Assembly (NCBI GenBank): GCA_050084515.1
Contig: CM114271.1
Span: 11,284,001 to 11,348,000, forward strand
Source: Blasia pusilla
Lineage: Eukaryota
Direction of reading: 5' to 3'
DNA: 64,000 bases
A program made the translations under genes and the position numbers. Under the pieces are notes generated by a model, which was not told where the DNA came from, did no database searches, and was given only the letters and a program-made list of their open reading frames with translations. This document shows, in pieces, positions 1 to 21,618 of the stretch; position 1 is the stretch's first letter, and every line of letters starts with the position of its first letter.

Positions 1-3000
1 AATCCGTCGGAGACTGTTGGGTTGCACGCTTCCCTCATCAAGGGTTAGGAACGATGGCTTCCCGTGCAAGTCGTCGGAGTCTGGCTGGCTGCACCACAAG
101 GCGGCGCCCTTGCGCAACCGGTTGGACGGCGACGGGTTGCACGCCTCGCCGTCTTTGGGCTAAAAGGCGAGGCACCCCCGGAACTCGTCGGGAACAGACG
201 GTTTGCACGCCTCCGGCATCTTCCAGCAAGAAGGAGCGGTATCCCGGCAAGTCGTCGGAGAGCGACGGGTTGCTTGCTTCGACAATGTTTAGCAGAAGCG
301 TGCAACTCGTCCGATGCCGACGGGTTGCAGGCTTCGGTAAGCTTCGGGTAATTTCTGAGTTACCAGGACCCCGACGGGTTCCAAGTGATGCGCAACCCTG
401 TGCTTCCCAAATCCGGTAACATATTGCAACAACATTGAATGTGTCACTGAATTGGATCCATTGTGTCAGACATTCTCCCCCACCGAATTCATCTTGTCAG
501 TAAAAATCTGTCAGGAGTATCTGTTTCCTATTCACTGTAAATTAAATATTCTCATTCTCATTCTCATTCTCAGTCTCAGTCTCCTCCCGTAGGAATCTTC
601 TTGGAATGGATAATTATGTTAAGCTCACTTGTGGCAGTCATCTGGTGGCCCTTCCTCAATCAGAAATCATTCGACCCCAAGCTCGTGAGTCTTTCGTAGC
701 AGTGGATGAAAATTTTCTGTCTGTTCGATTTCTTCTTCAAATTGGAACCATCTTTGTATCCAAAGATGTTAGGGTGGAAGGTATGGAAGAAATAATAGGT
801 GAGACGGTCCAGCAAGTGACCTCAACCGTAAAGTATGGAATCTCCTACCTATCGCAAATGGTCAATACAGAGTTTACGGCCTGCCCCTGAATTCGTCTGT
901 TTCCCAAGTAGACGGTCTAGAATTTCCTAGTGCTCCGAGCTCTACGTTTGCAACTCCAAGCTTTGCAGATCCGGCTTCGACTCCAACTTCGCACACTCGT
1001 AACAATGTTGTTCTTCCTGAAGAGATTCCGGATGTTATCAACCTCAGCGGATCTATCGAACACCAATCGGGCCCTGTGTCCGCCTACTCGTTCCTCTTGC
1101 GAGTATCAGGCAATAGTTTGCTTTCGTCTCTGCCCTTGAAAATGTTCAAGCACATTCTTGTCGACGAGCTGCCGCCCACGTACGATGAAAATTGCATTTT
1201 TGAGTTGCCTCCGCTTCTTTGCTCTGCTCAAAAGAAGGATGGAGGGCGCTGAAGGGTATGGACGAAAAAGTCGATTGTCATCGATGGTGCAGGCTTCAAC
1301 GGACCTGTGCTTCCATCCAGATGGTCCTTGGATTGTCTCCCGCCGCCAATGCGTGGGAGCCTTGGAGTGTAGAAGTCCAGCATGCCCGTATCTAGAGCGC
1401 AACGGGCGAGTCAATACGTCGCAATTCCCCCCCAAGAATGCAGAAACTCCATACGAGGTGGGTGCCACAATACCGCCGGGAGGCCATCGATGTCCTCATT
1501 GTCAGGCATCGCCCTTCTGCGTTGGAGCGTGTCCTGCATACATATTTTTCATTGTCCATGACTTGGGCTCCACGTCAGAGTATACAAAATTTGGCAGTTC
1601 ATGTTGGCTCCCACACTCATCCTGTGACCGATGCAATTCAAAGACACATCAAGGAGGATGTGGCGAAGAAAGTAGCCGAGGTCTTCAGAAACTCTCCGGG
1701 TTCAAAGCCCGGGGTGATCAAGCTCACAACGGCATCACAAATTTGTGAAAAATTGCTTGGAATCCCTGGACAGGGCAAGATCACGGCGGTTGAGGAGAAA
1801 CAACTCTGGGAAAATCTCGCGTTTCTCGCTGATCCTGAATGCTTCCGGAATTTGTTGCGTCAGATACGAGTTTTGGATGGAAAGACGGCCGAAATGGATG
1901 CCATCGCCAAAATCAAGGCTAACTCCAGATTTCCATTTATTCAGAGATGGCAGTTCATGGGCCAAGGAGGCGAGGGATCCAGGGCCTATGTCTTCAAAAT
2001 GTCAACCATAGGTCCCTCGAGTGGCCTCAATCTTATAGATCGAATGAGGGAAGGGGAAGATCTTTACGGGAGCCGGGTCGGCTTTGATATTTGCTCTGAG
2101 TCTTTGAACGGATGGTTGACGATGGGTGCTCACGTTTATGACCATGTGGAGAACGGACTCAAAACTATATTTGTGTGTGAAGTAAAGCGTAAGACGTTGG
2201 CGCGGTTTGAAGATGTCTTTGGTTACTCTTATTGGAGGTGGTGAAGGAAAACAAAAGGCCACCTCCGGAAATTTATGGGTTCATGGCGGACAATGCACAA
2301 CCTGGGTGGATTGCTATCCGGGAAATGTTATGGGGTGGAGAGGTTTCAACTGCAGAGGGAAAGGTCGGATGCTTTCCATTGGCAACAGTCTGTGACCCGG
2401 TACACCAAATCTTGCATCAAGGAGAATAAGAGGACAGAGCATGTCACTCTACTCCAACGCTGCAAGGACAAAAAAACCTTGAAGTAAAGGCCATGGACCG
2501 GGAAGAACTTCATGGGCGGTGGAGGGAGCATGCGATTGAGGGGAAGTACAAAGAGTTGTGCTCTTGGTTGAGTTGGTGGACTGTACGTATGAGACAATGG
2601 GGAAACTTCATGCGGCAGGTGAGTTCACTATTTTGTCTTGTCAAGCTCACGCTGAGAATTGTTTGTAAAGTTGTAGCTCAGGGTGAGAAGCGTGGGAATT
2701 ATATGGATTTCAAACCCAAGAAACCAAGCAAGTTGTCGGATGCGATGGGTTTCCCGAGTGTGCAACCCGACGGAAACCGACGGGTTGCCCAAGGGTGCAA
2801 CCCGACAGAAACCGACGGGTTGCATCCAGATGTTTGATGCAACCCGAGTGTGCAACCCGTCGGGACCCGACGGGTCACAGAGTCGTTCATGGGATGCCTC
2901 GGCCTTGCAACCCGTCGGGTTGCAGTAGGTGGGTTTAAGGTTACAACACGTCGGTTTCCGTCGGGTCGCAGAGTCGTTCATGGGATGCCTCGGGCTTGCA

Positions 3001-4987
3001 ACCCGTCTGGTTCTGACAGGTTGCTTATTTCTTTGACTCCTGGGTTATTTTCGTTCCCTTGTAACATTGCCGTCGTTGCAGGGATTGAACGTTCATGAAA
3101 ATGCCCTCTGCCCCAACACAAGTGGAGCAGAAAGTGTTCATTCCTCCTGGAGGTCGTCACAAGCATGCCAACGAATTTCACTTGTGGAGGCATGCCAACA
3201 AGACCAGGCAAGAGCAATCTACTGATCAGAGCATCCCATATCTTTCTCACAAAAGGCATAACAAAAGGAAAAGGGCCGTCGATCTACGGAGCTCTTTGTT
3301 AGGGCGGTTGTGAGATCTGGTGATGAAAATTTGTATGTCGAGCCCTTCACCGGTGCGTAGCTGGAACTCCACTCGAGCAAGACGTACACATTGGTGGGGA
3401 TATTCGTGCAGGGTGTTTCAAGACGTCCCCCATAGATGGTGGTAGAGCAGTCCGAACGAGACTCGTGGAGACCAGATAAGTATCTTGACTTCAGGCAGGT
3501 AAAGAGGCAGCATCGAGGAACGATTTCGGTGATTGATTTGGATGAGGAAATTACACCGCCCGAGTATTCGGGGACCCCGGACCCGTCCCAAATCCGTGAT
3601 GGAGTTACTTCTCCAAAATCAGTGAATGTTTTATTTCAAAAGCCCTCCTTGGCTGGAAGTTCGCAACATCCTGTCACTGGGGTGGTTCAACAATATGGGA
3701 TTCCGGCAATGGAGGTGGATTGCAACCTAAAACGGTGGCATATATCTCGGAGCAACCCAGGATGTGAACCCACCTGCAGGGCAGGATCTGATGGCATTAG
3801 GAGAGCATGCGACACTTTCCTAAATAAGAACTGTACAAGGACTGGACGACCTCTGCCTGGGTTTTGGGGACTCAAAACCTTTGATCGTTTCACGAGGACC
3901 GGGGATCAATTGAAGTACTTCTTCTGCCCAAATGAATCTTGCGCTTTCCGGGAGTCTTATCCGGCTGCCATTGGAGCTCTCGGGAATACCCCCACGATTT
4001 GGCCCATCGGCGCAGGCACGAACTGCACTCAAGACGAAGTGGACAATCTTACAAGTGCCGGTTTCAGACTCGTAGACGGGGGAAGTTCGAAGCATGTTCG
4101 CATTACAGAGACCTTCGCATTTTGTATTCAACCCAAGATTGATGTCAACATGTACCCGGAGAAGGTGGATGATCTCAATCCATTATTTCTGTTTGAGTCT
4201 AGAAATGGGGTGAAGAGAAACAGAATGTGTAGGCCAACGTTGGAGAGAGCAAAACGAATTGCAGCAGCTCGGGAGGCAAAAATGGAGATCATCGCAACGA
4301 AAGATGTCATGAGTGGCAATGGAATAGGAAGGATGTATTGGGTCAGGAACAACACTTTAAATTCAAGTGTCACAGGGGTGTATGTGGTGCACATCTGTTG
4401 CTTTCCCACATGTTCATGTGATGACTTTGTCCAAAGAGAGACAAAAGGCAAAAGGTATTTCCCTTCTAAGCAGATGTACTATGTGTTGCTGGTAGTTTTA
4501 AGAGATTCAGAGGTAGGAGTAGGAATCCACCAACCAATTCTGTCCCTCAAATAAGTTCGAAATATTTTAAACAAACCACTTTGAGGATGCAAAATGAGGT
4601 GGTTGATTGTACTTTTATTTTTTTCTCAACCTTCACTGTGAGCTTGAACTCTATTCAGCCCGGGGAAAATGATAGATTTTTTCCAGACCTTGGATGGAAA
4701 AAGTGATTGGTTCCACACTTATGATTCCACTGATTTTTCAGTTTTGTAAATTTTGTGCAATTTGCAACTCGTCGGACTCACAGGGGTTGCCAAAATATGG
4801 AAGAGGAAAAAAAATTTGTGGGATTGTTTAATAAATGAACAAAAATGTGCAAAAAATTCACACAAAAAGTTTCCTCTCTTCAACCCAACGGAAACTCTCT
4901 TAAAAAAAAAGTATCTATATCGGTTGAAGGTAGTTTCCTCTCTCCTCTCTCCTCTCTTCCTCTCTTCCTCTCCTCTTACCGCACCTC
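1..4987 (+). mobile_element. Mutator-like (MULE) DNA transposon copy E1, transposase arm; runs off the window on the left, right terminus ...ACCGCACCTC at 4987
   Basis: Contains the transposase pseudogene and palindrome clusters. The CT-rich subterminal tract and terminus are shared with copy E2 (8668-8677 ACCGCTCCTC). An 11-bp target sequence follows at 4988-4998. Confidence 0.8.
606..4584 (+). pseudogene. MULE-type DDE transposase with GCM/WRKY-like Zn finger and C-terminal SWIM finger; two exons, frameshifts and stops
   Basis: Zn finger: RQCVGALECRSPAC...RCPHCQASPFC...GSHTHP. Catalytic candidates: GFD (~2085), FMADNAQ (~2280), DAFHWQQS (CxxH-like, ~2370). GT-AG intron 2619-3081 is followed by NTSGAESVHSSW (third acidic residue). 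SWIM finger: CSCDDF...FP(C/S)K(H/Q)MYY. Confidence 0.8.
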
Positions 4988-5251: not shown

Positions 5252-5289
5252 GTTCAAAGAACTCAAGGATCCAACTTAACTACAGCGTT

Positions 5290-6404
5290 TTGGAGTAGGG
5301 ATTTATTTGATGACGAGGCAGAAGAATTCATAGAATCGATCAAATGTATGGTTCTGAGCTTCCTTTGGATGTAATAAAGGACACGATTTTTTCAAACCAT
5401 GATGGTGTTTGTAAAATTTTGTTGAATATCTTTTTTGGTCTTGACGATTGTGATCGTCTATGTTTTCTGACACTTCATAATGCAACCCGTCGGATTGCCA
5501 CGGTTGCAACTTTTCACTTTTTGACCACTGCACCATTCTAACCACTTCCAGGCAACCTGTCGGATTCCGACACGTTGGCTCCATGAGTGATCGGACTCTT
5601 TCCCTGTTAGTCCAACTTTACAGGCATTCTGGCGGGCTTCTTCACTTTGGCATCTTCCCCTAGTTTCATCAAACAAGTCTTAGGCTTCCTCTCTTCTCTA
5701 AGACGTGTTGGATTCCTACTACCTGGCTGAGGACATGATGGTGGCTCCAAGGACGGAGCACATATTGATACTGGATGGGTATCACCTTGCAGAGCGTACA
5801 AGATTTACTGCCAAAGAAGGCGGTGGGACTCAAATAAGGTTACATGGAACCGTTATGGTGTACGTAGGGGGGTGCCAAGGCTCTCGAATTCGCCAACATT
5901 TTCGATCCCCGTCTACAATCGGCCAGAGGAGCTACTTGTATCCCAGGACATTCCTTTTGTACAGGAACCTAGGAGAGTTAGGAGTAAATTTGTAGATGAC
6001 GAGGCTGAAGAAATCATAGATTAGATCAAATGTACATTTGTGAGCTTCCTTTGGATGTAATAAAGGACAAGATTTTTTCAAACGATAATGGTGTTTGTAA
6101 AAGTTTGTTGAATATTTTTTTTGGACTTGTCGATTGTGTTCGTCTAGCTACTTAGAATGTTTATTTTGCAACCCGTCGGATTCCGACATATTGCAACTTT
6201 TCACTTTTTCACCACTGCAACTTTTTAACCATTTACAAGCAAGCTGTCGGATTTCGACAGGTTGGCTGCTTGAGTGATCGGACTCTTTCCCTGTGAGACC
6301 AACTTTTGAGGCATTGTGGCGGGCTTCTTCACTTTTGGCTAGTATTGTCGAACCAGTTGTAGGCTTCTTTTCTTCTCTAAGACGTGTTGGATTCCTACTA
6401 CCTG
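5290..6404 (+). repeat. Imperfect ~420-bp direct duplication (about 5290-5725 and 5980-6404) around a unique ~255-bp segment
   Basis: Both copies run from GATGACGAGGC.GAAGAA.TCATAGA to GACGTGTTGGATTCCTACTACCTG. Confidence 0.85.
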
Positions 6405-7079
6405 TCGGATTGCCATTTTGGATTCCCAACCGGTTGGATTTTTGTGGGTGCAGGGTGGAATGGAATCACTTCTCAAAATCTTTCCTTTGTTATGTTGAGC
6501 TTGCTTGCAAGGGATGCAAGCCATTTGATTCGGACGAGTTGCAAGAGTTGCAACCTGTAAAATTCCGACAGGTTGGGAGGGGTGCAGCTTCTCGGTTTCT
6601 CAGATTTAGGATCTGAATAAACGGACATCAGTTCCTCTTTACTCCAGACAGCTAACAATCTTTTGGTTCAATTATCGTCTTCTGTGTTCACATTTCACAA
6701 AGTTGGTCTTTATTTGAACCTTTCATTGAGATGAGATTGCTACTTCTGGTCTAATTATTTGCCAATGATCCTCCAACAAAAAAAACCTTTGGGCACAACT
6801 TACTGTAGACTGAGACAGGCAATGTGAAGAAACTTAGGCTCATATGGAGAGTGATGGAAAATTTTTTTAGTGGTCTTATGATGTCTACGTGTTTTTCGCC
6901 CCAGGAAAAAGGAGGTTTCTTTAGGCCCAAATGTGGACCACTACCTACTCTCTTCTAAAGATTTCATGAATTTGAAAGCAAACAAAAATTTCAAATATGT
7001 CAAAAAGTTTTGAAGGCGGCGGCGTTTCAATAGCCTTCAAATATGAGAGGAGGCAGATTTGGCCCTTTTTTTCTAACGA

Positions 7080-7142: not shown

Positions 7143-8677
7143 CCAGATAAGTATCTTGGCTTCAGGCAGGTGAAGAGGCAGCATCGAGGAACGAACCCGA
7201 TGATTGATTTGGATGAAGAGATAACGCCGCCAAGGTATTCGGGGACCCTGGATTGCTCCAAAATACGTGCTTGAATAACTTCTCCAAAATCAGTGAATGT
7301 TTTATTTCAAAAGCCCTCCGTTGTTGGAAGTTCGCAACATCCGGTCGCTGGGATGGTTCAACAATATGGGATTCCGGTCATTGAGGTGGATTGCAACCTC
7401 AAAAGGTGGCATATATCTCAGAGCAACCCTCAACGTGGACCCACTTGCAGGGCAAATCTGATGGCATTAGGAGAGCATGCACCACTTTCCTAAATTAGAA
7501 GTGTACAAGAACTAGACGACCACTCCCTAGATTTTGGGGACTCAAAACCTTTGATCGTTTCACGAGGACCGAGGATCAATTGAAGTACTTCTTCTACCCA
7601 AATGAATCCTACGCTTTCTAAAAGTCTTATCCGGCTGCCATTGGAGCTTCGGGGAATACCCCCACGATTTGGCCCAACGCCGCAAGTACGAATTGCACTC
7701 ACGACGAAGTGGACAATCTTACAAGTGCTGGTTTCATACTCGTAGACAGAGGAAGTTCGGAGCATGTTCGCATTATAGAGACCTTTGCATTTCATATTCA
7801 ACCCAAGAGTGATGTCAACATGTATCCGGAGAAGGTGGATGATCTCAATTCACTATTTTTGTTTGAGTCTAGAAATGGGATAAAGAGAAACAGGATGTGT
7901 AGGCCAACGGTGGCAAGAGCAAAGCGAATCGCATCAGCTCGGGAGGCAAACATGGAAATCATTGCCACAAAAGATGTCCAGAGTGGCAATGGAATAAGAA
8001 GGATGTATTGGGTCACATTAACACTGTTCATTTAAGTGTCACAGGGGTGTATGTGGTGCATATCTGTTGCTTTCCCACATGTTCCTGTGATGACTTTTTC
8101 CAAAGAGAGACAAGTGGGAAAAGGTATTTCCCTTGTAAGCACATGTACTATGTGTTGCTTGTAGTTATAAGAGAGTCGGAGGTAGGAGTAGGAATCCACC
8201 AACCAATTCTGTCCCTCAAAGAAGTGCAAAGTATTTTAAACAAACCACTTTGAGGATGCAAAATGAGGTCTTAGATTGTACTTTCATTTTCCAGAACCTT
8301 CACTTAGAGCTTGAACTCTATTCAGCCCAGGGCAAATGATAGATTTTTTCTAGACCTTGGATGGAAGAAGTGATTTGTTCCACATTTATGATTCCAATGA
8401 TTTTTCAGATTTTTAAATTTTGTGCAAATTGCAACCAGTCGGATTCAAAGGGGTTGCCAAAATATGGAAGAGGAAAAAAAGATCAGTAGGAGTGCCTAAT
8501 CAGTGAAAACAAAAGTGCAAAAAAATTCACCAAAAAGTTTCCCCTCTTCAACCCAACAGAAACTCACTTCAAATCACAAGAAACTCACTTCAAAAAAAAG
8601 TCTCTCTTTGGGTTGAAGGTAGTTTCCTCTCTCCTCTCTCCTCTCTTCCTCACTTCCTCTCTTCTTTACCGCTCCTC
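7143..8677 (+). mobile_element. MULE copy E2: 5'-truncated SWIM exon plus right terminus
   Basis: Collinear with 3472-4987. The SWIM motif CSCDDFFQRETSGKRYFPCKHMYY is intact at 8008-8253; the copy is frameshifted. Confidence 0.9.
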
Positions 8678-11600: not shown

Positions 11601-13945
11601 CCTTCTTGACCGTGTTGCAATCTTGGATCCAGTGGTGGGTGACGTTCCCCTTGGATAAAATCCTGCAAATCCAAACACAAGGTAAGAATACTGCAAGCTA
11701 TTGGGTTCTTGCAACCCGTCGGACTTTGACGGATCGCTATTTTGTCAACCTTTCGGGGTCCAAATTGTAGCATAGAGATACGTGTTGCAACCCGTCGGAC
11801 TCCGACGGGTTGCAATTCTATCAATCCATCGGGATCCAAATCATAGCACAGAGATAAGTGTTGCAACCCATTGTACTCCAACGGGTCGCAATTTTTTCAA
11901 CCCATGGGGGTCCAAATCGTAACACAGAGATAAATGTTGCAACCGGTCGGAGTCCGACGGGTCGCAACACTCGTCTTTGTGTTATATTTATTACAACACG
12001 CTTGAAATTTTTAGAGAGAATTGCAACCCATCGGAGTCCGACGGGTTGCACTTTGTGTTCGTGACTCTCAGGTCCAAGCGATCGGTTCCTCTTATTCCTT
12101 GGTTCCAACCCGTCGGACTCTGACGGGTTGTAGAATGACTTCCTTTCGGAGATAGGTTTCCGGATAAAAACTGACCATATCAACCTGTTAGAGTCCAACT
12201 GATTGCGCAATGGCCCTGTAAAGCTGGAATTGGATGCCTAAGAGCAAGGTGTGGGACTCCGACCACGTAGCTTGGGGGAAAATGCAACTTGTCGGAGTCC
12301 GACGAGTTGCTTCCGCCAAAAGTATCAAAAAAATAGCAGACAGTCCAACAACTCGTCAGACTTTGACGAGTTGCTTTTAGGCGTCCGATGATTTGTTACC
12401 CCTCATTGTGCAACTCGTCTAAGTCCGACGGATTGAAGAAAAAATAAATCATGCAGTCATTTTTCCACCCGTGGATGTTTAACTGGTTTCAGTATCCCGG
12501 ATTAATGTTGTGAGCTTGGCCACCAGGCAACCCGTCGGACTCCGACGGTTTGCTTGACTATGACCTTGATCACAAATAGGATGGTGGCAAGAGACTCAAA
12601 TCATTCTTGCCCATCTCTAAGCTTTCCAATTATGCAACCCGTCGGACTCCGACGGGTTGAAGCAATCAAACTTAAGGATGAGGAAACTTACGTATTCATC
12701 GCATGCATTGCCATTTCCACCCTTGCCATGTGATGAGGAAATGGATGGAGCACAACTGACTTCACACAAAAATGCGCCTCCAATGAATTTGGGTGCTCCT
12801 CTACAAACTGCGTCCACGCCATGTACATGTGGTTCCCATCCCAAATGAAGAAGTAGAGGTTCCGGATCTAGCTAAATTGGGTTCCTTCAATCGCTCTTCT
12901 GAAGTCCTGATCTCTCATCCTCCACAATGTATCCAATGCCTCCAAGTCCTCTTCTGTCACCAGAGCTTGGGTTCCATGTTCATTGTAAGGCTGAACATAG
13001 AACGGAGGGAAGCTGTCGACGTAGGATTTAGTCGCTGCTGACTGTTTGAGCTTTGCAATGTCCTCCTTCGACTAAATTTCACGCACATACTTCATTGTCC
13101 GCAATCGACAGAGTGGATTTCTTGGGGCCTTTTGGCCTTCCATTTGTGCCATCTGCTTAACAACCCGCCACAATGGGGACAAAGTCAATAAAATACTATG
13201 TTTTGCCAATGAATTGCATAATGAGCCTTCACATAACTTGAGTTTTTCTTACCCGCTCAAAGATTGGGTCGGTGTCCAAGCCCGCCAGCTGCTTTGGGAC
13301 AGGAGCTGGCAAGTCCACGGGAAACTCATCGATCCGATAAAGGTCGATTTCTTCCACCGGCCTCAAAGACGACAAAGACTCTTCTCTTGCTTCTTCAGAG
13401 ATGTCCACCATCTCCACACTTGTTGTCCTCGTGACCTCATCGTCCGTCACTTGAACTTCGGCCATTTCCTCAGCCAATTTTAGATTCATGGTATCCCAAG
13501 ACCTCATCGGAGATATTTCCTCCATCTCAACATTGTTTGTTGGATGGGCACGGATTTCTTCAATGGCAATTTCTTTTTCTCTTTGAGCTTTCCCCAATTC
13601 TGCTCTCCTGGCGGAGGCGTCAAGACGCTTCTTCTCGCGTTTCTCGTCCGCGACAATTTTCTTCAAGGCCTTTGATGCCTCAACCTCGGCGTTTTGCTTT
13701 GCAAGCTCCTTTAGAGCAACTTTTGCTAGAACTTCCTGCCTGTGCATATCTGCTTCCCTTTCCCGCTCCTCTATTTCTTGTTGCCTTATCTCATTCGCTG
13801 AATGAGGACTTGGAGATGGTGATGCAGGAGTCCTGATAGACTTGGGAGTGATGCTCCCTACCTTGGTTACTTGTGTTTCCTTTCTCGTCATGGTGCACGT
13901 TGGGTCAGTTCTTCCTCCTTGACAGTCTAATCTGCTCTTGTGCAC
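8678..13945 (-). pseudogene. Cargo gene: charged/coiled N-terminus, ParB/Srx-like domain and beta-class N4C/N6A DNA methyltransferase; at least 3 exons, decayed
   Basis: ParB-like: VREI*SKEDIAKLKQS...PPFYV...FFIWDGNHMYMAW (WDGNH at 12829-12843). GT-AG intron 12691-11663 splices in phase. Motif IV VDLLIADLPFG (DLPF at 9896-9907). Second intron 9633 to ~8887. Motifs X/I EKSPALMQTLMELCSRPGDLVFDL at ~8700-8775. Start codon uncertain. Confidence 0.75.
11785..11815. repeat. Perfect exemplar of the dispersed palindrome TTGCAACCCGTCGGA-N-TCCGACGGGTTGCAA
   Basis: 15-bp inverted arms with a 1-nt spacer. Degenerate copies cluster at 1-400, 2740-3030, 9000-9600, 11700-12660, 14300-15000 and 17790-18650. 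Confidence 0.95.
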
Positions 13946-14289
13946 AACAGATTCCTCAAAGCTTCGATGGAGTGCCTAAACGCAACTCACGAAGCGTTTC
14001 GTGATGAAGCGCCGTGACCCTTGAGCGGATGGGCTTGCCGAAATCGAACCTCAAAGTGTCGGGTGCTGGATCGTCGTAACCTTCCAACGAAGGGGTCAAT
14101 GTAATCGACTTTGGCAGCGGAAAGGTACCATCAGCTAGTGCCAGGAAGAGCACATAAAATCCGCGAAATGAAAAATGGAAATGAGCAAAATCTTAGCCTT
14201 TTATACTTTTCGAGCCGTTAAGCTGACCGTTGGGTCATTGGGTCGTATCGACGGCAACGTTGGCCGTTATGGAACTTTGCACATGGGAA

Positions 14290-15000
14290 CCCCGGAAACC
14301 CATCGGATACCGATGGGTTGCACACTTCCCTCATCTTGGGGATACAAGGCGAGGTACCCGGGCAACCTGTCCAAGACCGATGGGTTGCATGCTTCCCTCG
14401 TCTTTGGGTAACAAGGCGAGGTACCCGCGCCACGCGTCGGAGGCCAACTGGTTGCATGCTTCCCTCGTCTTGGGGTAACAAGGCAAGGTACCCAAGCAAC
14501 CTGTTTGAGACCGACGGGTTGCAAGCTTCCCTCATCCTCAGGTAACAAGGCGAAGTGCCCAAGCAACCCATCGAAGACCGACGGGTTGCACGTTTCTCTC
14601 GTCTTGGGATAACAAGGCGAGGTACCCGTGCAACCCGTCGGAGACCGATGGGTTGTACGCTTCCCTCATCTTGGGGTAACAAGGCAAGGTACCCGCGCAA
14701 TCCGTCGTAGACCGATGGGTTGTACGCTTCCCTCATCTTGGGGTAACAAGGCGAGGTACCCGTGCAACCCGTCGGAGACCGATGGGTTGTACGCTTCCCT
14801 CATCTTGGGGTAACAAGGTGAGATACCTGTGCAATTCCTCGGACACTGACGGGTTGCATGCTTCCCTTGTCTTGTGGTAACAAGGCGAGGAACCCAGGCA
14901 ACCGGTCTTAGACCAACGGGTTGCATGCTTCCCTTGTCCTTGGGTAACAAGGCGACAAAGCATAGTCCCGAGGCAACCCATTGACCTCCGACGGGTTACA
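14290..15000. repeat. Tandem array of ~10.5 units of 67 bp, each containing the palindrome
   Basis: The (A)ACAAGG anchor recurs at 14343, 14410, 14477, 14544, 14611, 14678, 14745, 14812, 14879 and 14946, an exact 67-bp period. A degenerate homologue lies at 1-340. Confidence 0.95.
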
Positions 15001-15004
15001 AGGT

Positions 15005-17737
15005 CTACCCGCGGTTGGACACTTCCCACCATACGGCAAAAGTGCCCCGTATTATGGAGGCACATATTGGGTGATCCAACTTCATCTAGGATTTGGTGGT
15101 GGCACAACTTGGATTGCATAGCACCCTCCCCACTATTCGGGTTCATACCACCCTTCTTCTGTAATGGGATCTTCCTAGATCCAACGTAAATCCCTCTCAG
15201 TATGACATTCCTGGGCAGTATGCCGTTGGGTTCTGCAGGTACTGCACCAGATGTTGGGCCTCATCAGACCTGGTCGTCTTCTGGGATCCTTCTGGGCCGC
15301 CAGATGTACCTTCAATTCTGCCATTTGCTTACTTAGCTCTTCCATGGCCGACTTGTCGGCCTTCCTCACTGTCCCCCTCACTGGACTTTCCGACCGCTGG
15401 AGAAGGTGCTTTGTTGGTCGGGTTTTCCTTTGGTGCTTGGGAGAGTGGTGGCGCGTGCTTTTTCTTTTCCGTTTAGATTTTAAATCTTTCTCAGAGTCCG
15501 AGGACTCCGAAGTGTCCCCCATAGAGGATTCCGTGTCTGTGGAAGACGATTCGTCCTCCGACGAAGCACTAGTTTGCGACGAACCTCGTCGTTGGTGACG
15601 CCATCTTCATTTTTTACGGGACTTCTCTAAGGCCTCGTACGCCTCTGCGGAGCTACATGGGTAAATTCAAGCACAAAGTTGTCCACATCATCTCGCCGTT
15701 CCCCTGCAAAGGTGGGGTATCTTAGCAGCGTCTTCCTAGTATTGGCCATGGGGAATGGTCTGCTGCTGGGTCCCGGGCTTGATGCTCGGGAGGGAGGAGG
15801 TAGCGGTTCGGCTATAGTTGACTTGGTCGGCTCCATGTCCCCCGAGTCCTCAAAGGGGTCCCAGGTTGACTCTTCGTCCGACTGCGAACTAGCAGGGGAC
15901 GTAGTGGAGAGTTTGTTCCTCTCTCTCTCCTTGCTCTTGGGCTTCGTGCGTAGACGAAGACCGGGAGACAGCCCAGGCGGTCTCCAAGACGGGTGATCTT
16001 CTTGCTGCTTACTGCGTCGATCGGCTCGCTGATCTCACGAAGAGGGCCGGGAGCCTTCCATGAGTCCCTTCTGGGATTCAGGAGTTTGCTTCCGCACCCA
16101 CGGTCGCAACAAGGTAGGGGTCCATGGAGGGAAATTAAATGTTTCTAATTCCTAAGCCTACAGGAGTGTGCCCGGTGCTCTTAATCTTCATGCCAGGTTT
16201 TCCTCCCATAAATAAAAGTACCGGGTCATCACCAAGAACAACTGAAGTTCATGGGCGGAGCACCGTTCGGTGACTGGTTTATTGACAATACTAATTAATT
16301 GTTCTATCTTTTCTAGCACCAATGCAGCAAATCGGTTGTTATCTTCTTTCATCCATTGTCTGAGGGGGATAGCTAGAGATAGCAGATGGTCTTTAGTAAG
16401 AACTGACTGGTTGGGTCTTCTAGGAGACGAGGCTTCTTTCCCCGCTCCCAGATTCCCCATGTGTCTCTTTCCCTCTTCAGCAAAGCTTATGATCTCGGGC
16501 AGCGGCGCCAAAAAGTTTCTTTTTGTATGTAATGTACAAGAGTTTTTATTTTACAGTCGTTTTAATAAGTTCGATCCTTAAGAGGATCATTGTTTGATGA
16601 AAAGAGAGTTCGAAATTACAATTCTGTTGTAATAGTTGTATTTAAATGTGTATGAGTTCTATTCAATGTCATATCAATATCTGCTGATCTTTCTTAGTAC
16701 CAAAGGATCTTTTCTCGATTCTCTCTAGTGGAATTGATAGCAGGTTCATGTAGATTTTCCTCTTGACATCAAGAAACCTCACAGAGATCTCAACATGAAA
16801 GCTGGCTTCTCCTACTTTCGGAACTCAATCCGTCTCGGCACGCTACTCTCTGTCAAAAAGATTTCCTACAACTCAGGTTGATTATTTCATTGATGAGAAA
16901 GGTTTGCCTGATTCACTCTTCACTTTGTAGACCCAAAAAGAATACTCAAACATAAGCATCGCACATCAAAATGAATGAATAATTGCTTTACTATTCCATC
17001 AAGAATGAGAAAGCTTCAAAGTGTATACAAGCTTGAGAGGGTACTACTCCCTTGCTCAGACCATTCCTACAGCATAAGGATTTTGTAAGAGAATGATGAT
17101 TATGGCTTCTATCTTGTTTCTTAAATACTCGCTGGAGTAGAAGTGATCCAAAGATTCAAAGCATTCTTGATGAAGCGAGTGTCTCTTCACCATTTCTAAC
17201 TACCTAGATCTATGGTTCTCTTAGCTTTTCCTACGATCCCTGTGAATCCGCAGAACAAAACTGTCCCAACTACCAATTTGATACAAAGGGTCGCGCCTCT
17301 TCCTAGTCTAACAGTTCTAACGTGCGTCGCTTGAAATCACAGTCGTTCTTAGCTTCGCTTCGCTGGACTTCATGAGGACGAAGCACTTCATGCTTTGTTC
17401 TTATTTCAGATGCTTCGTGCTTCGCACTTCATACAAGAGCGAAGTACTTCTTTCTCCTCTTCTTCATGCTTCGGTATGCTTCGTTATAGAGCGAAGCACT
17501 TTGTAGACAGAGCTTTGTTGAGCTTCGTTGAGCTTCATTATTGCATTTTCCTCTCCACTAAGGCAAATCCTTGATCTTCCATCTCTCTACCTTGTCCCAA
17601 GAGCTTCGTGATTCACTTTAATCTTACTCATTCTTCCTCATAATAATAAATAATCAAAATCAAAATCATAATGTACAAGAGTCTTCTTTGAATAAAAAGA
17701 TACATTTCTTCAAAAGTACAAAATTGTGGGTATCACA
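15005..17737 (-). mobile_element. Truncated Ty3/gypsy-type element: 5' LTR (~16524-17737), PBS and decayed gag
   Basis: The LTR begins TGTGATACCC on the minus strand and matches 53054-54263. PBS TGGCGCCGCTGCC at 16498-16510 (-) is Athila/Tat-like. Zn knuckle CSTCRTQRHTAQEC. Inserted in the MULE transposase intron (the right flank matches 2668). Confidence 0.8.
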
Positions 17738-20700
17738 AAAGTTGTAGCTCAAGTTGAGAAGCGTGTGCACTATAGGGATTTCAAACTGCAGAAAACCAAG
17801 CAACCCGTCGGAAACCGACAGGTTGCATCAAGAATGTTTGTGCAACCCGTTGGAACTCGACTGGTTGCATGAGTGTCACACCCGTCCGAGCGCGACATCA
17901 TGCACGAGGAATGTTTGTGCAACACGTCGGAACCCGATTGGTTGCATGAGTGTGCAACCCTTTCGAATCCCAATGAGTTGCAAGTTGCATGTATACAAGG
18001 CCTGCAAATAGTTTGATGCGGATGGGTTGCAAGCCCCAAGGCTGCGAGTTAACTTGGTCTGCAACCCGTCGGATTCCGACAAGTTGTGTCTGTCTGCAAC
18101 TTGTCGGATTCCGACTAGTTGCCTCTGTATGCGACTCATCACATTCAGACAGGTTGTTGTTGTCTCCAAGTCCTCGCATCCAGACACGTTGCATCAGTGC
18201 AAGTTAATTTGAACCCGTAAAATTCCAATAGTTGCAAAGCTACCTATGTGGACACTTCTTGCAAGCCAACAAAATCCGACAGGTTGCACAAGGATTTTTT
18301 AGACCGGACCGGCCTGCTTCTCACAACCCGTCCGATTTTGATGGGTTGCAGTAGTAGGTTCCCGAGTGCTAGGTTGCAATAAAAGGTTATTGGGACATTC
18401 CAAGGATGTCTCCAACTTGCAACCCGTTTCAAGTCGGAGGCTGGAAAATCCATGTGCAACCCATCGGATTCCGATGACTTCCAGTTGGATCTTCCAGCCC
18501 GGAGTGGCCAAAGTTACTTGCAACCCGTCTGAACCCCACAGGTTGCACTAGGTGGTTCTTGGATGTTGCAACACGTCGGAAACCGACCGGTCACAGAGTC
18601 ATTCATGGGATGCCTCCGACTTGCAACCCATCTTGTTCCGACAAGTTGCTTTTTTCTTTGCTCATAGAGTTATTTTCGTTCCCTTCTCATATTTCTGTCG
18701 TTGCATGGATTGAACATTCATGAAAATGCCCTCTGCCCCAACATAAGTGGAGCAAAAAGTGTTCATTCCTCCTAGAGGTCATCACAAGCATGCCAAAGAA
18801 TTTCATTTGTGGAGGCATGCCAACAAGATCAGGCAAGAGCAATTATCGCGCCCCTACTCTCCTTGAACGTCAATCTTTAGTGTTGCGGAAGCGTGCGTTC
18901 AGTAGGTCACGAACTCATCGCCGATCTGCACCCAAACACGCACTCTCGTTAGTCGGGTTTGGCCAACCAGCGTTCCAACCCACCAAGTCCTCAACTCGGC
19001 GTCTCATTAAGCTCAACCTTCCTTAGTTCCTAGCTCCCAACACATGGCAAGTCCTTCAAGACTTGGAACAGACTTCCTGGTTAGTCCAGGGATCTGAAAC
19101 AGCACTTGCACGCCTAGCAATCCCAGCTATTCAACGGTCCTCGTGTGAGTTCCGAACCGAGACCCAAGTAGTTGAGTCGCGGCGTGAAATCCAAGAGGGA
19201 TGCCTAAAATCGCCTCAATGGACTTGGTGCAGGTTTTCCAACCCAACGCCCAAACTCGCGTTCCGTTCCATGCCCTTGAGCTGCCCCGCGGCGCCCAAAG
19301 TGGGGTTTGGGTTCCAAGCACTCTCGGAGACCTGCCCCCTTACTAGTACTTTTGGGGTTCTCCAATAACCCCTCCCCTTTGGGAAAAGAGGTTCGGGCCC
19401 TTCATTGTGGCCCTCAACCTGACTCCACTTACAGTTGTTTTCGGGTTGTATCTCGGCCGCTGCTTATGCGTTTGCAACAATCTTTGGTGCGTTTGGACCG
19501 GCTCTCCATAAGCTTTCCAACGCACCCTTATTTGCTCCAAAACCATCTTGGCGCTAAAAGTTATGGCCATAAATACAGTCGGAAACTCTCAAACGTAAGT
19601 GGCGTTCCAAATCCGGATCTTTCCTTTGGCAACCCCCTTCCTAGACTCGACTTCTTTCAAGTCTCATTCCGCGTTTGGTCCAGGTTTCTGAGTCACAACC
19701 ATAACACCTGAAACGCGATTCCTTGCTCGCGTCTCGTCTCTTGTCTCCTCTTTGAGACACCTCCAACGCGCAAACCATCTTAGCGTGAGTCCGCTAATGT
19801 TCTGATGTTCCGCTTGGTACTTGTTTGGTCATGAGGGTCGCGACAGCAATGGTACAGTCTGCAGCATCCCATATCTTCCTCAAAAAAGGCATAACAAAAG
19901 GAAAGGGGCCTTCAATTTATGAGCTCTATGTCAGGGCGGCTGTGAGATCTGGTGATGAGAAACTCTATGTGGAAGCCTTCAATCAGTGCGTAGCAGGAAC
20001 TCCTCTCGAGCAACATGTCCACATTGGTGGGGATATTTGTGGGCGTGTTTCAAGACGTCCCATACAGATGGTGGTAGAGCAGTCCAAGCGAGACTCGTGG
20101 AGACCAAATTAGTATCTTGACTTGAGGCAAGTGAAGAGGCAACATCGAGGAACGAACCCAATGATTGATTTGGATGAAGAAATTACGCCCTGGTATTCGG
20201 AGACCCGGGATTGCTCCTAAATCTGAGATGCAGTAACTTCTCCAAAATCACTGAATGTTTTTTTTTCAAAAGCCCTTCGTTGCTGGAAGTTCGCAACATC
20301 CGGTCGCTGGGGTAGTTCAACAGTATGGGATTCCGGTCATTGAAGTGGATTGCAACCTCAAAAGGTGGCATATATCTCCCAACAACTTTGAACGTGGACC
20401 CACTTGCAGGGCAAGATCTGATGGCATTAGGAGAGCATGCGGCACTTTCCTAAATAAGAAATGTACAAGGACTAGACGACCACTCCCTAGATTTTGGGGA
20501 CTCAAAACCTTTGATCGTTTCATGAGGACCGAGGATCAATTGAAGTACTTCTTCTGCCCAAATGAATCCTGCGCTTTCCAAAAGTCTTATCCGGCTGCCA
20601 TGGGAGCTCCAGAGAATACCCCCACGATTTGGCCCATTGCCGCAGGTACGAATTGCACTCAGGACAAAATGGATAATCTTACAAGTGTCCACTTGAGTCT

Positions 20701-21618
20701 CGTAGACGGAGGAAGTTCGGAGCATGTTCGCATTACAAAGACCTTCGCATTTCGTATTCAATCCAAGATTGATGTCAACATGTATCCGGAGAAGGTGGAT
20801 GATCTCAATCCACTATTTTTGTTTGAGTCTAGAAATGGGATAAAGAGAAAGAGGATGTGTAGGCCAACGGTGGAGAGAGCAAAGCGAATTGCATCAGCTC
20901 GGGAGGCAAACATGGAAATCATCACCACAAAAGATGTCCAGAATGGCAATGGAATAGGAAAGATGTATTGGGTCATATTAACATTGTAAATTCAAGTGTC
21001 ACAGGGGTGTATGTGGTGCACATCTGTTGCTTTCCCACATGTTCCTGTGATGACTTTTTCCAAAGAGAGACAAGTGGGAAAAGGTATTTCCCTTGTAAGC
21101 TTATGTACTATGTGCTGCTTGTAGTTTTAAGAGAGTCAGAGGTAGGAGTAGGAATCCACCAACCAATTCTGTCCCTCAAAGAAGTGCGAAGTATTTTAAA
21201 CAAACCACTTTGAGGATGCAAAATGAGGTCTTACATTGTACTTTCATTTTCCAGAACCTTCACTTTGAGTTTGAACTCTATTCAGCCCCAGGCAAATGAT
21301 AGATTTTTTCCAGAACTTGGATGGAAAAAGTGATTTGTTCCACACTTATGATTCCAATGATTTTTCAGATTTTTAAATTTTGTGCAAATTGCAATCCGTC
21401 GGATTCAGAGGGGGTTTCCAAAATGTGGAAGAGGAAGAGAGGAGAGAGGAGAGAGGAAACTACCTTCAACCCAAAGAGATACTTTTTTTTAAGAGAGTTT
21501 CCTATGATTTGAAGAGAGTTTCCGTTGGATTGAAGAGAGGATACTTTTTATGTCAATTTTTTTGCACTTTTATTCTCAGTGCGTAGGCACTCCTGCACAA
21601 AATTTTGCCCTCTTCCAC
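17738..21618 (+). mobile_element. MULE copy E3: transposase intron (palindrome-expanded), second exon with SWIM finger, rearranged subterminal region
   Basis: Collinear with 2668-4970. Splice acceptor mutated (GTTGCAT at ~18700). Interrupted by a solo LTR. Confidence 0.9.
18844..19845. mobile_element. Solo LTR (~1.0 kb) with 5-bp target site duplication GCAAT
   Basis: Ends TATCGCG...CGCGACA (TG..CA with one change). GCAAT at 18839-18843 and 19846-19850. The MULE exon continues on both sides. Confidence 0.9.

What the first reader, a model, noticed from the sequence alone, without database searches (positions are those of the whole stretch)
1..21420. Dozens of 31-bp palindromes confined to the introns and intergenic DNA of the MULE
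Seen: TTGCAACCCGTCGGA-N-TCCGACGGGTTGCAA and variants, roughly 70 by eye. They lie in the transposase intron (2619-3081, expanded at 17790-18650), both cargo introns (8890-9633 and 11663-12691), the central array and the subterminal regions. I saw none in exons, in the nested retroelements, or beyond 21.6 kb. Inference: these may be multimerised binding or loading sites for an element-encoded protein. ParB proteins load on palindromic parS sites, and VANC proteins bind motifs amplified in VANDAL non-coding DNA. The CCG/CGG/TCCGA-rich core could also be the MTase target. Hairpin RNA or cruciform roles are alternatives.
Basis: partly seen in the sequence, partly recalled or inferred. Interest (0 to 1): 0.8.

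Follow-up and report, generated by a model that had tools for sequence, protein, structure and literature searches.

The report
Transposon-specific palindrome arrays in non-coding DNA
A 29-base mirror-symmetric DNA motif is repeated about 68 times in the introns and spacers of a cluster of decayed Mutator-like jumping genes and nowhere else nearby, most likely a multiplied docking site for one of the element's own proteins, a known strategy seen here in an unusual palindromic form.

Summary
A position-weight scan finds 68 copies of TGCAACCCGTCGGA-N-TCCGACGGGTTGCA, all between 64 and 21,419. None lies in homology-defined transposase exons, in the nested repeats, or in the remaining 42 kb; shuffles give 0.13 or fewer.

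The repeated unit is a sharply bounded 29-bp dyad with uninformative flanks and no target-site duplications, so it is not a MITE. The arms do not covary beyond shuffles, so nothing supports selection for a hairpin. Copies fall into 11 clusters, some as 35-, 67- and 76-bp tandem arrays. Each compartment has its own sub-variants, and one intron holds 6 copies in one transposase copy and 14 in another.

The closest relative found, metagenome locus L015 (40-45% aa identity), carries three copies of a different 26-bp palindrome in the homologous intron. Other relatives carry their own amplified motifs.

Best reading (about 0.5): a family-specific, multimerised binding site for an element-encoded protein, as in VANDAL/VANC or Spm/TnpA motif clusters. 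Binding is untested.

ParB or methyltransferase identity of the "cargo" has no profile support. The host genome was not available, so genome-wide restriction is untested.

The parts
1..420 (.). Left array of about 67-bp units, cut by the window start. It holds five palindrome sites (64, 112, 178, 245, 300) and lies upstream of transposase copy A.
   Evidence: 96-351 aligns to 14,411-14,679 at 67-71% identity.
1055..2618 (+). Transposase copy A, 5' coding part (zinc-finger region and the N-terminal half of the DDE core). It is decayed by a frameshift and an in-frame stop. No palindrome sites.
   Evidence: tblastn of 91 relatives covers 1055-2630. P0002 has 90 relatives at E<=1e-3.
2619..3081 (+). 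Transposase intron, copy A (GTGAGT...TTGCAG), with six palindrome sites (2760-3026). One of them (2905) is centre-deleted: only its 5' part is a short 19-bp palindrome.
   Evidence: Homology stops at 2618-2630 and resumes at 3076. Sites. The RNA fold has z = -6.45.
3082..4572 (+). Transposase copy A, 3' coding part (catalytic-E region to a SWIM-like finger). No palindrome sites.
   Evidence: P0004 residues 11-503 align to 3076-4572.
4762..4792 (.). Single degenerate palindrome just inside the 166-188-bp segment 'B' (4798-4963). Its homologues lie at 8429-8459 and 21389-21419.
5480..6578 (.). Six palindrome sites in the unassigned stretch 4,991-7,142. All six have the centre triplet ATT. Part of the stretch is an internal duplication (5309-5725 matches 5995-6404).
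7143..8677 (+). Transposase copy B, 3' part only, with an intact CxC...CxH finger, followed by the palindrome at 8429 and segment B.
   Evidence: 87-92% identity to the other two copies. tblastn. SWIM E = 0.14.
8890..9633 (-). Putative intron of the minus-strand 'cargo' gene, with ten palindrome sites.
   Evidence: The intron limits rest only on ORFs and splice signals.
11663..12691 (-). Putative cargo intron (GTAAGT...TTTGCAG on the minus strand) with thirteen sites, including the only perfect 31-mer (11785) and a 76-bp x 3.4 array (11709-11967).
14286..15002 (.). Central 67-bp x 9.8 array with eleven sites. It lies between the cargo gene's 5' end (minus strand) and what remains of transposase copy C (plus strand).
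15003..17737 (.). Nested unrelated repeat with no palindrome sites. It replaces the 5' coding part of copy C and the first 48 bp of its intron.
   Evidence: 16526-17737 matches the reverse complement of 53054-54261 at 87%, next to a Ty3-type RNase H ORF. Copy C homology starts at about 17741, equivalent to 2667.
17738..18852 (+). Transposase intron, copy C, expanded to fourteen sites including a 35-bp x 3.9 array (18057-18191).
19841..21201 (+). Transposase copy C, 3' coding part, with no palindrome sites. It is preceded by a second nested repeat (18853-19840).
21389..21617 (.). Last palindrome (21389-21419) followed by segment B in inverted orientation (21430-21617). All similarity to the element stops at 21617. 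This is a candidate right end.

Best explanation
The palindromes are a lineage-specific cis-motif of a divergent Mutator-like DNA transposon family. One 29-bp dyad (two 14-nt half-sites around a free central base) has been multiplied by local tandem duplication in every non-coding compartment of the element: the array upstream of the transposase gene, the transposase intron, the introns of the neighbouring minus-strand gene, intergenic DNA, and the position just inside the terminal segment.

The most likely function in active family members is a cluster of binding sites for a dimeric, element-encoded DNA-binding protein. The candidates are the transposase, through its N-terminal Cys/His finger region, or the accessory 'cargo' protein. 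Such a cluster would concentrate that protein on the element for end recognition and/or for transcriptional activation or anti-silencing, as VANC does on VANDAL21 and TnpA does on Spm.

The copies in this window are relics. All three transposase copies are broken and the CpG-rich motifs are decaying.

Shown: the motif, its numbers, its confinement within the window, its sharp boundaries, the absence of TSDs, its tandem amplification and turnover, and the analogous but different palindrome in a relative's homologous intron.

Inferred: that a protein binds it, which protein, and what the binding achieves.
For: 1. Enrichment and confinement. There are 68 sites in 21.4 kb and none in the other 42.6 kb, against 0.13 or fewer expected. 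None falls in the 12,740 bp of exons and nested repeats.

2. A discrete unit. Information content is 0.46-1.88 bits at positions 2-15 and 17-30 (0.06 at the free central base 16) and at most 0.33 bits in 30-bp flanks on either side. The 29-bp dyad is what was propagated or kept, in otherwise unrelated contexts.

3. Sequence, not pairing. The arms match the consensus independently. There are 36 compensatory cells against 29-31 in shuffles, and 172 and 269 of 2000 shuffles reach that count.

4. Local amplification with concerted sub-variants.
- Tandem arrays have periods of 35, 67 and 76 bp.
- Centre triplets are compartment-specific: ATT in 6 of 6 sites, ACT or AGT in 12 of 13, AGA in 7 of 11.
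- The same intron has 6 sites in copy A and 14 in copy C.

5. Independent parallel. In L015, the closest relative among 80 loci (40-45% aa identity), the homologous intron (309-nt gap) holds three 26-bp palindromes of a different sequence. The 14 other loci with a clean junction have 21-256-nt gaps and no palindrome.

6. Other relatives carry their own amplified short motifs next to the gene: L061 33 copies, L055 18, L022 13, L035 9, L007 7, each allowing up to 1 mismatch.

7. Literature precedent. VANC21 binds motifs that form tandem repeats in introns, intergenic and terminal non-coding regions. Repeats are gained and lost between copies and the motifs differ between families (PMC5735166, passages). 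TnpA binds dense motif clusters (bioRxiv 10.64898/2026.08.24.746577, abstract and passages).
Against: - No binding data exist and no binder has been identified.
- In the youngest array the palindrome columns are less conserved than the spacer (0.835 against 0.908; non-CpG columns 0.863 against 0.912).
- Orthologous palindromes differ more than their flanks between copies A and C. There is therefore no sign of constraint in these copies. This is expected for dead copies, so it is uninformative about active ones.
- Absence from exons would follow from selection on coding sequence under any model. Absence from nested repeats would follow simply from the motifs being older than those insertions.
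- Only one relative (1 of 15 loci with a clean junction) shows the intronic palindrome parallel.
- The cargo gene has no detectable DNA-binding domain or homologue.
Confidence: 0.5

Rival explanations
1. Neutral, self-expanding palindromic minisatellite. A palindrome-containing unit expands and contracts by replication slippage, unequal exchange and hairpin-associated rearrangement wherever the element tolerates it (non-coding DNA). It has no function for element or host.
For: - Tandem arrays with 35-, 67- and 76-bp periods.
- Copy-number difference between paralogous introns.
- Palindrome columns less conserved than spacers in the 67-bp array.
- CpG columns deviate more than others (130 of 544 against 224 of 1360), with 83 of those 130 being transitions.
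- A centre-deleted 19-bp palindrome at 2905 and a 29-nt-arm extended hairpin in L015 point to palindrome instability.
- Exon avoidance is explained by coding constraint alone.
Against: - The same 29-bp core occurs in 11 separate clusters in at least seven compartments, with uninformative flanks. Simple tandem growth would copy spacers as faithfully as cores.
- Palindromes arose independently in the same intron of a 40-45%-identical relative.
- Lineage-specific motif arrays recur across the family.
Confidence: 0.28
2. RNA-level role. The palindromes form hairpins in the pre-mRNAs of both genes; being palindromes, they fold in either transcript orientation. The hairpins would modulate splicing or feed small-RNA or dsRNA pathways, either as a host silencing trigger or as element self-regulation.
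For: - Forty-three of 68 sites lie in introns of genes on both strands.
- The copy A intron folds much better than shuffles (-194.8 against -155.6 kcal/mol, z = -6.45, 0 of 100 shuffles as stable).
- L015 has a perfect 29-bp-stem hairpin in the homologous intron.
Against: - There is no excess of compensatory changes or of paired cells over shuffles: 683 of 1020 cells paired against about 672.
- Single dyads give stems of about 13-15 bp, short for Dicer-type processing (established knowledge, not tested).
- Twenty-five of 68 sites lie outside the named introns, in arrays and subterminal DNA.
- There is no Rfam match in the window.
- No expression data could be obtained.
Confidence: 0.1
3. Independent mobile or satellite sequence. 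The dyad is a tiny MITE-like or REP-like element, or a genome-wide satellite, that happens to have invaded this region.
For: It is a dispersed, discrete unit with sharp boundaries. The host genome could not be scanned, so abundance elsewhere is not excluded.
Against: - No TSDs: direct repeats of 5 bp or more flank 0 of 68 sites at any of six boundary offsets, and 2-4-bp repeats occur at background frequency.
- None of the 68 sites lies in the 42.4 kb beyond 21.6 kb or in the nested retroelement pieces.
- There are no exact matches in metagenome, prokaryote-genome or viral contig collections. Those collections do not hold the host, so this is weak evidence.
Confidence: 0.05
4. Specific sub-hypotheses of the first reader. 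The dyads would be parS-like loading sites for a ParB-like cargo protein, or the recognition sites of a cargo DNA methyltransferase.
For: - The motif is palindromic and CpG-rich, with four CpGs per dyad.
- One 96-aa cargo ORF (9668-9955, minus strand) resembles methyltransferase clusters in a language-model search (scores 0.83-0.89, below the 0.9 level the tool treats as more than a lead). It contains a DPPY-like 'DLPFG' by eye.
- Palindromes fill the cargo gene's own introns.
Against: - No ParB or methyltransferase family is found in seven cargo ORFs scanned against Pfam (E up to 0.01 or 0.1) and NCBIfam (E up to 1).
- There is no PDB sequence match for two cargo ORFs.
- No homologue of the 181-aa ORF turns up among longer proteins.
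- No cargo homologue lies next to the transposase in 80 related loci.
- The ORFs are fragments of a possibly decayed gene, so absence of hits is weak evidence.
Confidence: 0.07

Closest known systems
VANC target-motif clusters of Arabidopsis VANDAL21/VANDAL6 (Mutator-like elements); Hosaka et al. 2017, PMC5735166 (passages read; supplementary figures not seen)
   Same: - A short family-specific motif accumulates in introns, intergenic and terminal non-coding regions of a Mutator-type element.
- It is amplified as tandem repeats.
- Repeats are gained and lost between related copies.
- Related families carry different motifs.
   Different: - Here the motif is a 29-bp dyad-symmetric palindrome, not a short asymmetric 9-mer-type motif.
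- No VANC (DUF1985) or other recognisable accessory protein was found in the 23 ORFs of the region scanned against Pfam.
- The transposase belongs to a clade that Pfam's MULE model does not detect.
- Binding and hypomethylation are untested.
Subterminal repeat and motif clusters bound by transposon proteins: TnpA on En/Spm 12-bp motifs (bioRxiv 10.64898/2026.08.24.746577, abstract and passages); Ac AAACGG repeats and the MURA site in Mu TIRs (recalled, not from a call)
   Same: - There are many copies of one short motif near the ends and upstream of the transposase gene.
- Motif pairs occur in inverted orientation (recalled for En/Spm).
- CpG-containing motifs could couple binding to methylation.
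   Different: - The motif here is also abundant deep inside the element, in the introns of two genes.
- The element's ends are not resolved, so a 'subterminal' position is only partly established.
Bacterial REP/BIME palindromes and eukaryotic MITEs or foldback elements
   Same: Short, dispersed, hairpin-capable palindromes in non-coding DNA.
   Different: - There are no TSDs.
- Within the window the copies are confined to one transposon family's DNA.
- There is no HUH/RAYT-type gene.
- Copies are amplified as tandem arrays, not inserted singly.
ParB-parS partition and loading systems
   Different: - No ParB domain is detectable.
- The dyad is 29 bp, against 16 bp for canonical parS (recalled).
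- The setting is a eukaryotic transposon.

Membership tests
Mutator-like element (MULE) | DDE transposase of the Mutator/IS256 type | tested here: inconclusive
   - No Pfam MULE or Transposase_mut hit for the window ORFs or for 10 relatives, even at E up to 10 for P0012, P0006 and P0004.
- Relatives show a D...D...CxxH...W pattern by eye.
- The AF2 model of relative P0006 (pLDDT 77.7) has an RNase H-like core. Its best structural matches are the IS256-family ISCth4 transposase (Foldseek prob 0.97, E 0.023; VIA Z 7.5, rmsd 11.5 over 165 residues), then Hermes and retroviral integrases at Z about 6.5. These Z values are middling.
Mutator-like element (MULE) | C-terminal SWIM-type CxCxnCxH zinc finger | tested here: inconclusive
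   Pfam SWIM scores E = 0.14 and 12.2 bits, below the 19.6-bit cut-off, for 7903-8250. The CSC...CKH pattern is visible in copy B and in P0004; copy C has CSC...CKL and copy A has SKQ instead.
Mutator-like element (MULE) | Long terminal inverted repeats with 8-11-bp target-site duplications | tested here: inconclusive
   Segments 4798-4963 and 8465-8651 match 21430-21617 in inverted orientation at 76% and 86%. Their arrangement is equally explained by a local inversion between GGAAGAGG and CCTCTTCC. The left end lies outside the window and no TSD could be assigned.
VANC-type motif cluster system (VANDAL) | Family-specific motif concentrated in the element's non-coding regions as tandem repeats, with gain and loss between copies | tested here: met
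VANC-type motif cluster system (VANDAL) | Related elements carry different motifs at equivalent places | tested here: met
   L015 has a different 26-bp palindrome, three copies, in the homologous intron. That is 1 of 15 loci with a clean exon junction. Other loci have their own amplified motifs.
VANC-type motif cluster system (VANDAL) | Element encodes a VANC-family (DUF1985) protein | tested here: not met
   No such Pfam hit in the 23 ORFs of 1-21.7 kb that were scanned. The ORFs are fragments of decayed genes.
VANC-type motif cluster system (VANDAL) | The protein binds the motif and causes loss of DNA methylation | not testable with these tools
   Needs ChIP or DAP-seq and methylomes.
MITE / independent mobile palindrome | Target-site duplications flanking each copy | tested here: not met
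   None of the 68 sites has a direct repeat of 5 bp or more at any of six offsets. Shorter repeats occur at background frequency.
MITE / independent mobile palindrome | Copies outside the host element | tested here: inconclusive
   None of the 68 sites lies in the 42.4 kb of the window beyond 21.6 kb. The host genome was not available.
Structured RNA hairpin family | Compensatory covariation between the arms | tested here: not met
   There are 36 compensatory cells against 29-31 in shuffles; 172 of 2000 (all-site) and 269 of 2000 (within-region) shuffles reach that count. No Rfam family matches.
ParB-parS | ParB N-terminal domain protein encoded beside the sites | tested here: not met
   No ParB family among seven cargo ORFs in Pfam or NCBIfam. 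The fragments limit sensitivity.

The most novel reading that the evidence does not exclude
The dyads are operators of a transposon-encoded, sequence-specific anti-silencing or activation system that evolved independently of angiosperm VANC and TnpA. A dimeric element protein (the unassigned 'cargo' protein or the transposase finger) would coat about 60 palindromes spread over promoter, introns and ends, keeping the element demethylated or transcribed. Protein and palindrome would co-evolve rapidly between lineages, as the different palindrome in L015's homologous intron suggests.
Probability: 0.15. Interest if true: 0.8.

Novelty: new variant of a known kind. Interest (0 to 1): 0.5.

Why it matters
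Motif clusters bound by transposon proteins (VANC, TnpA) are at present documented mainly in flowering-plant elements. They explain how a transposon can recognise and reactivate only its own family.

Here a divergent Mutator-like family carries a long, dyad-symmetric motif multiplied about 68-fold in promoter-side arrays and in the introns of two genes. A relative shows a different palindrome in the same intron. If binding is shown, this would be a new and experimentally convenient case of protein-motif co-evolution in transposons. It would also supply a specific 29-bp operator for testing.

If instead it is a neutral palindromic minisatellite, it is an ordinary by-product of repeat dynamics in decaying transposons.

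Tried and rejected
- **Sequencing runs.** Coded runs of the same organism were listed, including RNA and WGS raw reads. No RNA holder was listed and only small shares (0.12-0.15) appeared in five DNA runs. There are therefore no data on splicing, expression or copy number.
- **Exact-motif scans.** Metagenome, prokaryote-genome and viral contig collections gave 0 matches each. Protein P0002 against genome contigs gave 34 pattern matches, none confirmed. These collections do not contain the host.
- **Homologue searches.**
  - P0001 against longer proteins: none.
  - P0001 against proteins of similar length: one hit, P0004.
  - Cargo ORF 11155-11697 against longer proteins: none.
  - Atlas for P0001: no usable hit.
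- **Profile of transposase relatives against PDB sequences.** Only chance-level hits, E 0.29 or higher.
- **Rfam on the whole window.** 0 matches.
- **Earlier findings of this scan.** Nothing for this genome, motif or protein.
- **Literature.**
  - The motif 12-mers occur in two unrelated papers (listing only).
  - A search for palindromic repeats in transposase introns listed nothing comparable (listing only).
  - The search on MULE, palindromic and subterminal repeats listed the Muta1 papers (listing and abstract starts only).
- **Origin of the arm from coding sequence: considered and set aside.** A 14-mer differing by 1-2 bases encodes the C-N-L-S-E-T motif in L006, L007 and L008. Three hits in 657 kb is within the shuffle range of 0-3, and the three loci are homologous at that site.
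- **Conservation tests (palindrome against flank) in paralogous copies.** These turned out to be uninformative about function, because all copies here are dead and the motif is CpG-rich.


Full report
**1. The observation**

The literal 31-mer with up to 3 mismatches occurs only 5 times, with 0 expected in 100 shuffles. The 15-nt arm TTGCAACCCGTCGGA is far more frequent.
- It occurs 4, 22, 45 and 76 times at 0, 1, 2 and 3 mismatches.
- All of these lie at or before 21,600 except one 3-mismatch hit at 36548.
- Forty first-order Markov shuffles of the window give a mean of 1.08 such arms and a maximum of 4.
- At up to 4 mismatches the arms pair into 44 dyads. Forty-two have a 1-nt spacer, one a 2-nt spacer, and one at 47780 has a 5-nt spacer and is probably chance.

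- It scores 64 positions at 16 bits or more, against 0 in 30 shuffles.
- It gives 68 local maxima at 6 bits or more, all between 64 and 21,419.
- The 42 seeds match by construction; 26 sites are additional.

Distribution of the 68 sites:

| Compartment | Sites |
|---|---|
| Transposase intron, copy C | 14 |
| Cargo intron 11,663-12,691 | 13 |
| Central 67-bp array | 11 |
| Cargo intron 8,890-9,633 | 10 |
| Transposase intron, copy A | 6 |
| 4,991-7,142 | 6 |
| Array at the window start | 5 |
| 4762, 8429, 21389 | 1 each |

No site lies in exons or nested repeats, which make up 12,740 of 21,620 bp. Treating the sites as 11 independent clusters gives P = 5.6e-5.

**2. The setting**

The region is not one tidy 21-kb element. 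Self-comparison shows three direct copies of the 3' half of one gene: 3230-4808, 7143-8677 and 19863-21436, at 87-92% identity. It also shows two related arrays (96-351 similar to 14,411-14,679) and two nested unrelated repeats (16526-17737 similar to the reverse complement of 53054-54261; 18853-19840 similar to repeats at 32-34 kb).

*The gene is a transposase.*
- ORF P0002 has 90 relatives at E<=1e-3 among 1.84 billion representatives.
- tblastn of 91 relatives maps coding sequence to 1055-2630 and 3076-4572. This confirms an intron at 2619-3081 with GTGAGT...TTGCAG ends.

*Superfamily assignment is consistent with Mutator-like but not proven.*
- Pfam does not recognise the family. The SWIM model scores only 12.2 bits against a 19.6-bit cut-off.
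- Relatives show a D...D...CxxH pattern and a C-terminal CxC...CxH by eye.
- An AlphaFold model of relative P0006 (pLDDT 77.7) has an RNase H-like core.
- Its best structural matches are the IS256-family ISCth4 transposase (Foldseek prob 0.97; VIA Z 7.5, rmsd 11.5, 165 residues aligned), ahead of Hermes and retroviral integrases at Z about 6.5. These Z values are middling.

*All three copies are decayed.*
- Copy A has a frameshift between ORFs 1140-1745 and 1396-2241 and an in-frame stop at 2242-2244.
- Copy C begins only 48 bp inside the intron, at about 17741, which corresponds to 2667 in copy A.

*The minus-strand 'cargo' gene (about 8.7-14.0 kb) is unassigned.*
- Seven ORFs gave nothing in Pfam or NCBIfam. 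Two gave nothing against PDB sequences.
- The 181-aa ORF has no longer homologue.
- No cargo ORF has a tblastn match in the 80 related loci.
- One 96-aa ORF gives sub-threshold language-model leads to methyltransferase clusters, scoring 0.83-0.89.

*Surroundings.* Beyond 21.6 kb lie a Ty1/copia-type integrase (rve, E 1.4e-10) and, at 52 kb, a Ty3-type RNase H.

**3. What the repeated unit is**

*Boundaries.* Aligning all 68 sites with 30-bp flanks shows high information content (0.46-1.88 bits) only at positions 2-15 and 17-30; the central base 16 carries 0.06 bits. Flanks carry at most 0.33 bits. The unit is a 29-bp dyad in otherwise unrelated contexts.

*No TSDs.* Direct repeats of 5-9 bp flank 0 of 68 sites at six boundary offsets. 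Repeats of 2-4 bp occur at background frequency.

*Arms.* The arms do not covary.
- 683 of 1020 cells are Watson-Crick paired, against about 672 in shuffles.
- 36 cells are compensatory, against 29-31 in shuffles. This count is reached by 172 of 2000 all-site shuffles and 269 of 2000 within-region shuffles.
- What is shared is the half-site sequence, not the pairing.

*Growth.* Amplification is local and ongoing in evolutionary terms.
- TRF finds arrays of 35 bp (2743-2823; 18057-18191), 67 bp x 9.8 (14297-14955) and 76 bp x 3.4 (11709-11967).
- Compartments have their own centre variants: ATT in 6 of 6 sites, ACT or AGT in 12 of 13, AGA in 7 of 11.
- The same intron has 6 sites in copy A and 14 in copy C.

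*Instability.* A centre-deleted 19-bp palindrome at 2905 and a 29-nt-arm perfect hairpin in L015 show typical palindrome instability.

*Decay.*
- CpG columns deviate from consensus in 130 of 544 cells, against 224 of 1360 for other columns. Of those 130, 83 are transitions.
- In the 67-bp array the palindrome columns are less conserved than the spacer, 0.835 against 0.908.
- These dead copies therefore show no constraint. That says nothing either way about active elements.

**4. Relatives**

A degenerate-pattern scan of metagenome contigs found 258 stretches encoding relatives; the best 80 were kept as L001-L080, 657 kb in total. None contains the window's motif.

*The junction between the two coding parts.* Fifteen loci have a clean junction.
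- In 14 of them the gap is 21-256 nt of AT-rich, intron-like sequence with no palindrome of 10-nt arms and at most 1 mismatch.
- The exception is L015, the closest relative at 40-45% aa identity. Its 309-nt gap has GTAATG...TGTGCAG ends.
- That gap holds three copies of a different 26-bp palindrome, TATTGCTAGCGCC|GGCGCTAGCAATA, at 84-90-bp spacing. One copy is extended to 29-nt arms.

*Stringent palindrome count* (11-nt arms, at most 1 mismatch):

| Sequence | Largest palindrome family |
|---|---|
| Window 1-21.7 kb | 15 |
| Rest of the window | 2 |
| L015 | 3 |
| The other 79 loci | 2 or fewer |

*Other amplified motifs.* Several relatives carry their own non-palindromic short motifs beside the gene. 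Allowing up to 1 mismatch, L061 has 33 copies, L055 18, L022 13, L035 9 and L007 7.

Lineage-specific motif arrays are therefore a recurring trait of this transposase family. Intronic palindromes recur in the sub-lineage nearest the window.

**5. Mechanism**

The best-supported reading is that the dyad is a family-specific cis-element that was multiplied because it recruits an element-encoded protein. Dyad symmetry and independent half-site conservation suggest a dimer.

Candidate binders are the transposase's N-terminal Cys/His finger region (read by eye; Pfam gives no name) and the unassigned cargo protein.

Two placements fit a regulatory or anti-silencing role as well as end recognition:
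- the 11-unit array lies between the divergently oriented cargo and transposase genes;
- one dyad sits directly inside each copy of the terminal segment B.

This mirrors what is documented elsewhere.
- For VANC21: binding in introns, intergenic and terminal non-coding regions; tandem-repeat growth; gain and loss between copies; different motifs in related families (PMC5735166, passages read).
- For TnpA of Spm: binding to dense motif clusters with subterminal hypomethylation (bioRxiv 10.64898/2026.08.24.746577, abstract and passages).

Shown here are anatomy, statistics, turnover and the parallel in L015. Binding, the binder and the effect are inferred. I put this reading at about 0.5.

Rivals:

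| Rival | Confidence | Main point |
|---|---|---|
| Neutral palindromic minisatellite | 0.28 | Explains arrays and decay, but less well the dispersal of a sharply bounded core into 11 clusters and the L015 parallel |
| RNA hairpin or small-RNA role | 0.10 | Intron RNA folds at z = -6.45, but there is no covariation and 25 of 68 sites lie outside the named introns |
| ParB/parS or methyltransferase-target version | 0.07 | No domain support |
| Independent MITE or satellite | 0.05 | No TSDs and none in the flanking 42 kb, but the genome was not scanned |

**6. Limits**

- No host genome was available. Genome-wide restriction, intron splicing, expression, small RNAs and methylation therefore remain untested.
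- The motif is absent from the metagenome, prokaryote and viral collections and from the searched literature (listing only). None of these sources covers the host.
- The element's ends and the status of the cargo gene are unresolved.

**7. Verdict**

The feature is a new variant of a known kind: transposon-protein motif clusters and subterminal repeats. What is unusual is the long palindromic unit and its occupation of introns in two genes. Interest is 0.5.

Noticed in passing
window 4798-4963, 8465-8651, 21430-21617: A 166-188-bp segment follows the transposase 3' end in direct orientation in copies A and B but inverted in copy C (76% and 86% identity). It is bounded by the short inverted repeat GGAAGAGG/CCTCTTCC. 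All similarity to the element stops at 21617, next to copia-like sequence. Either this is the terminal inverted repeat of a roughly 13-kb element (8465-21617), or the segment was flipped by recombination between the 8-bp repeats.
   Followed up: partly
window 2905-2924: A 19-bp palindrome (TGCAACCCG-T-CGGGTTGCA) is the 31-bp dyad with its central 12 bp missing. This is the kind of centre deletion expected from hairpin or cruciform processing.
   Followed up: no
L015:1172-1231: One of the three palindromes in the relative's intron is extended to a perfect 29-nt-arm, 60-bp hairpin, long enough to act as a dsRNA substrate if transcribed.
   Followed up: no
L006:2414, L007:2497, L008:4185: A 14-mer within 1-2 mismatches of the palindrome arm encodes the C-N-L-S-E-T catalytic-glutamate motif at the start of the second coding part in three distant relatives. 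The count (3 in 657 kb) is within the shuffle range of 0-3 and the sites are homologous to one another, so this is probably coincidence.
   Followed up: partly
L061:4754-5848, L055:5473-6122, L022:489-833, L035:158-1042, L007:3-105: Related transposase loci carry dense arrays of their own short, non-palindromic motifs next to the gene (33, 18, 13, 9 and 7 copies at up to 1 mismatch). Lineage-specific motif arrays appear to be a family trait.
   Followed up: partly
L030, L034, L053, L057, L067, L069, L070, L079 (400-1,400 bp after the end of the first coding part): Another clade of relatives shares a set of different 22-24-bp palindromes (for example GAGTCAAATTGACAATTTGACTC and CGGGACTCC-N4-GGAGTCCCG) downstream of the first coding part. 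L067 and L069 have up to four within 550 bp. Whether these lie in the homologous intron was not determined.
   Followed up: no
window 1140-2244 and 4480-4520: Transposase copy A is a pseudogene. It has a frameshift between ORFs 1140-1745 and 1396-2241 and an in-frame stop at 2242-2244. The CxH of its SWIM-like finger reads SKQ, whereas copy B keeps CKH.
   Followed up: partly
window 22042-22926; 52099-52740; 16526-17737 and 53054-54261: The flanking DNA is retroelement-rich. There is a Ty1/copia-type gag-pre-integrase and integrase (rve, E 1.4e-10) directly after the element's right edge, and a Ty3-type RNase H at 52 kb. The sequence next to that RNase H is 87% identical to the piece nested inside the element.
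   Followed up: partly
window 143-175: Within the left array, the spacer between dyads contains a second, unrelated short inverted repeat (GCCTCGCC...GGCGAGGC). The 67-bp unit may therefore hold two hairpin-capable elements.
   Followed up: no
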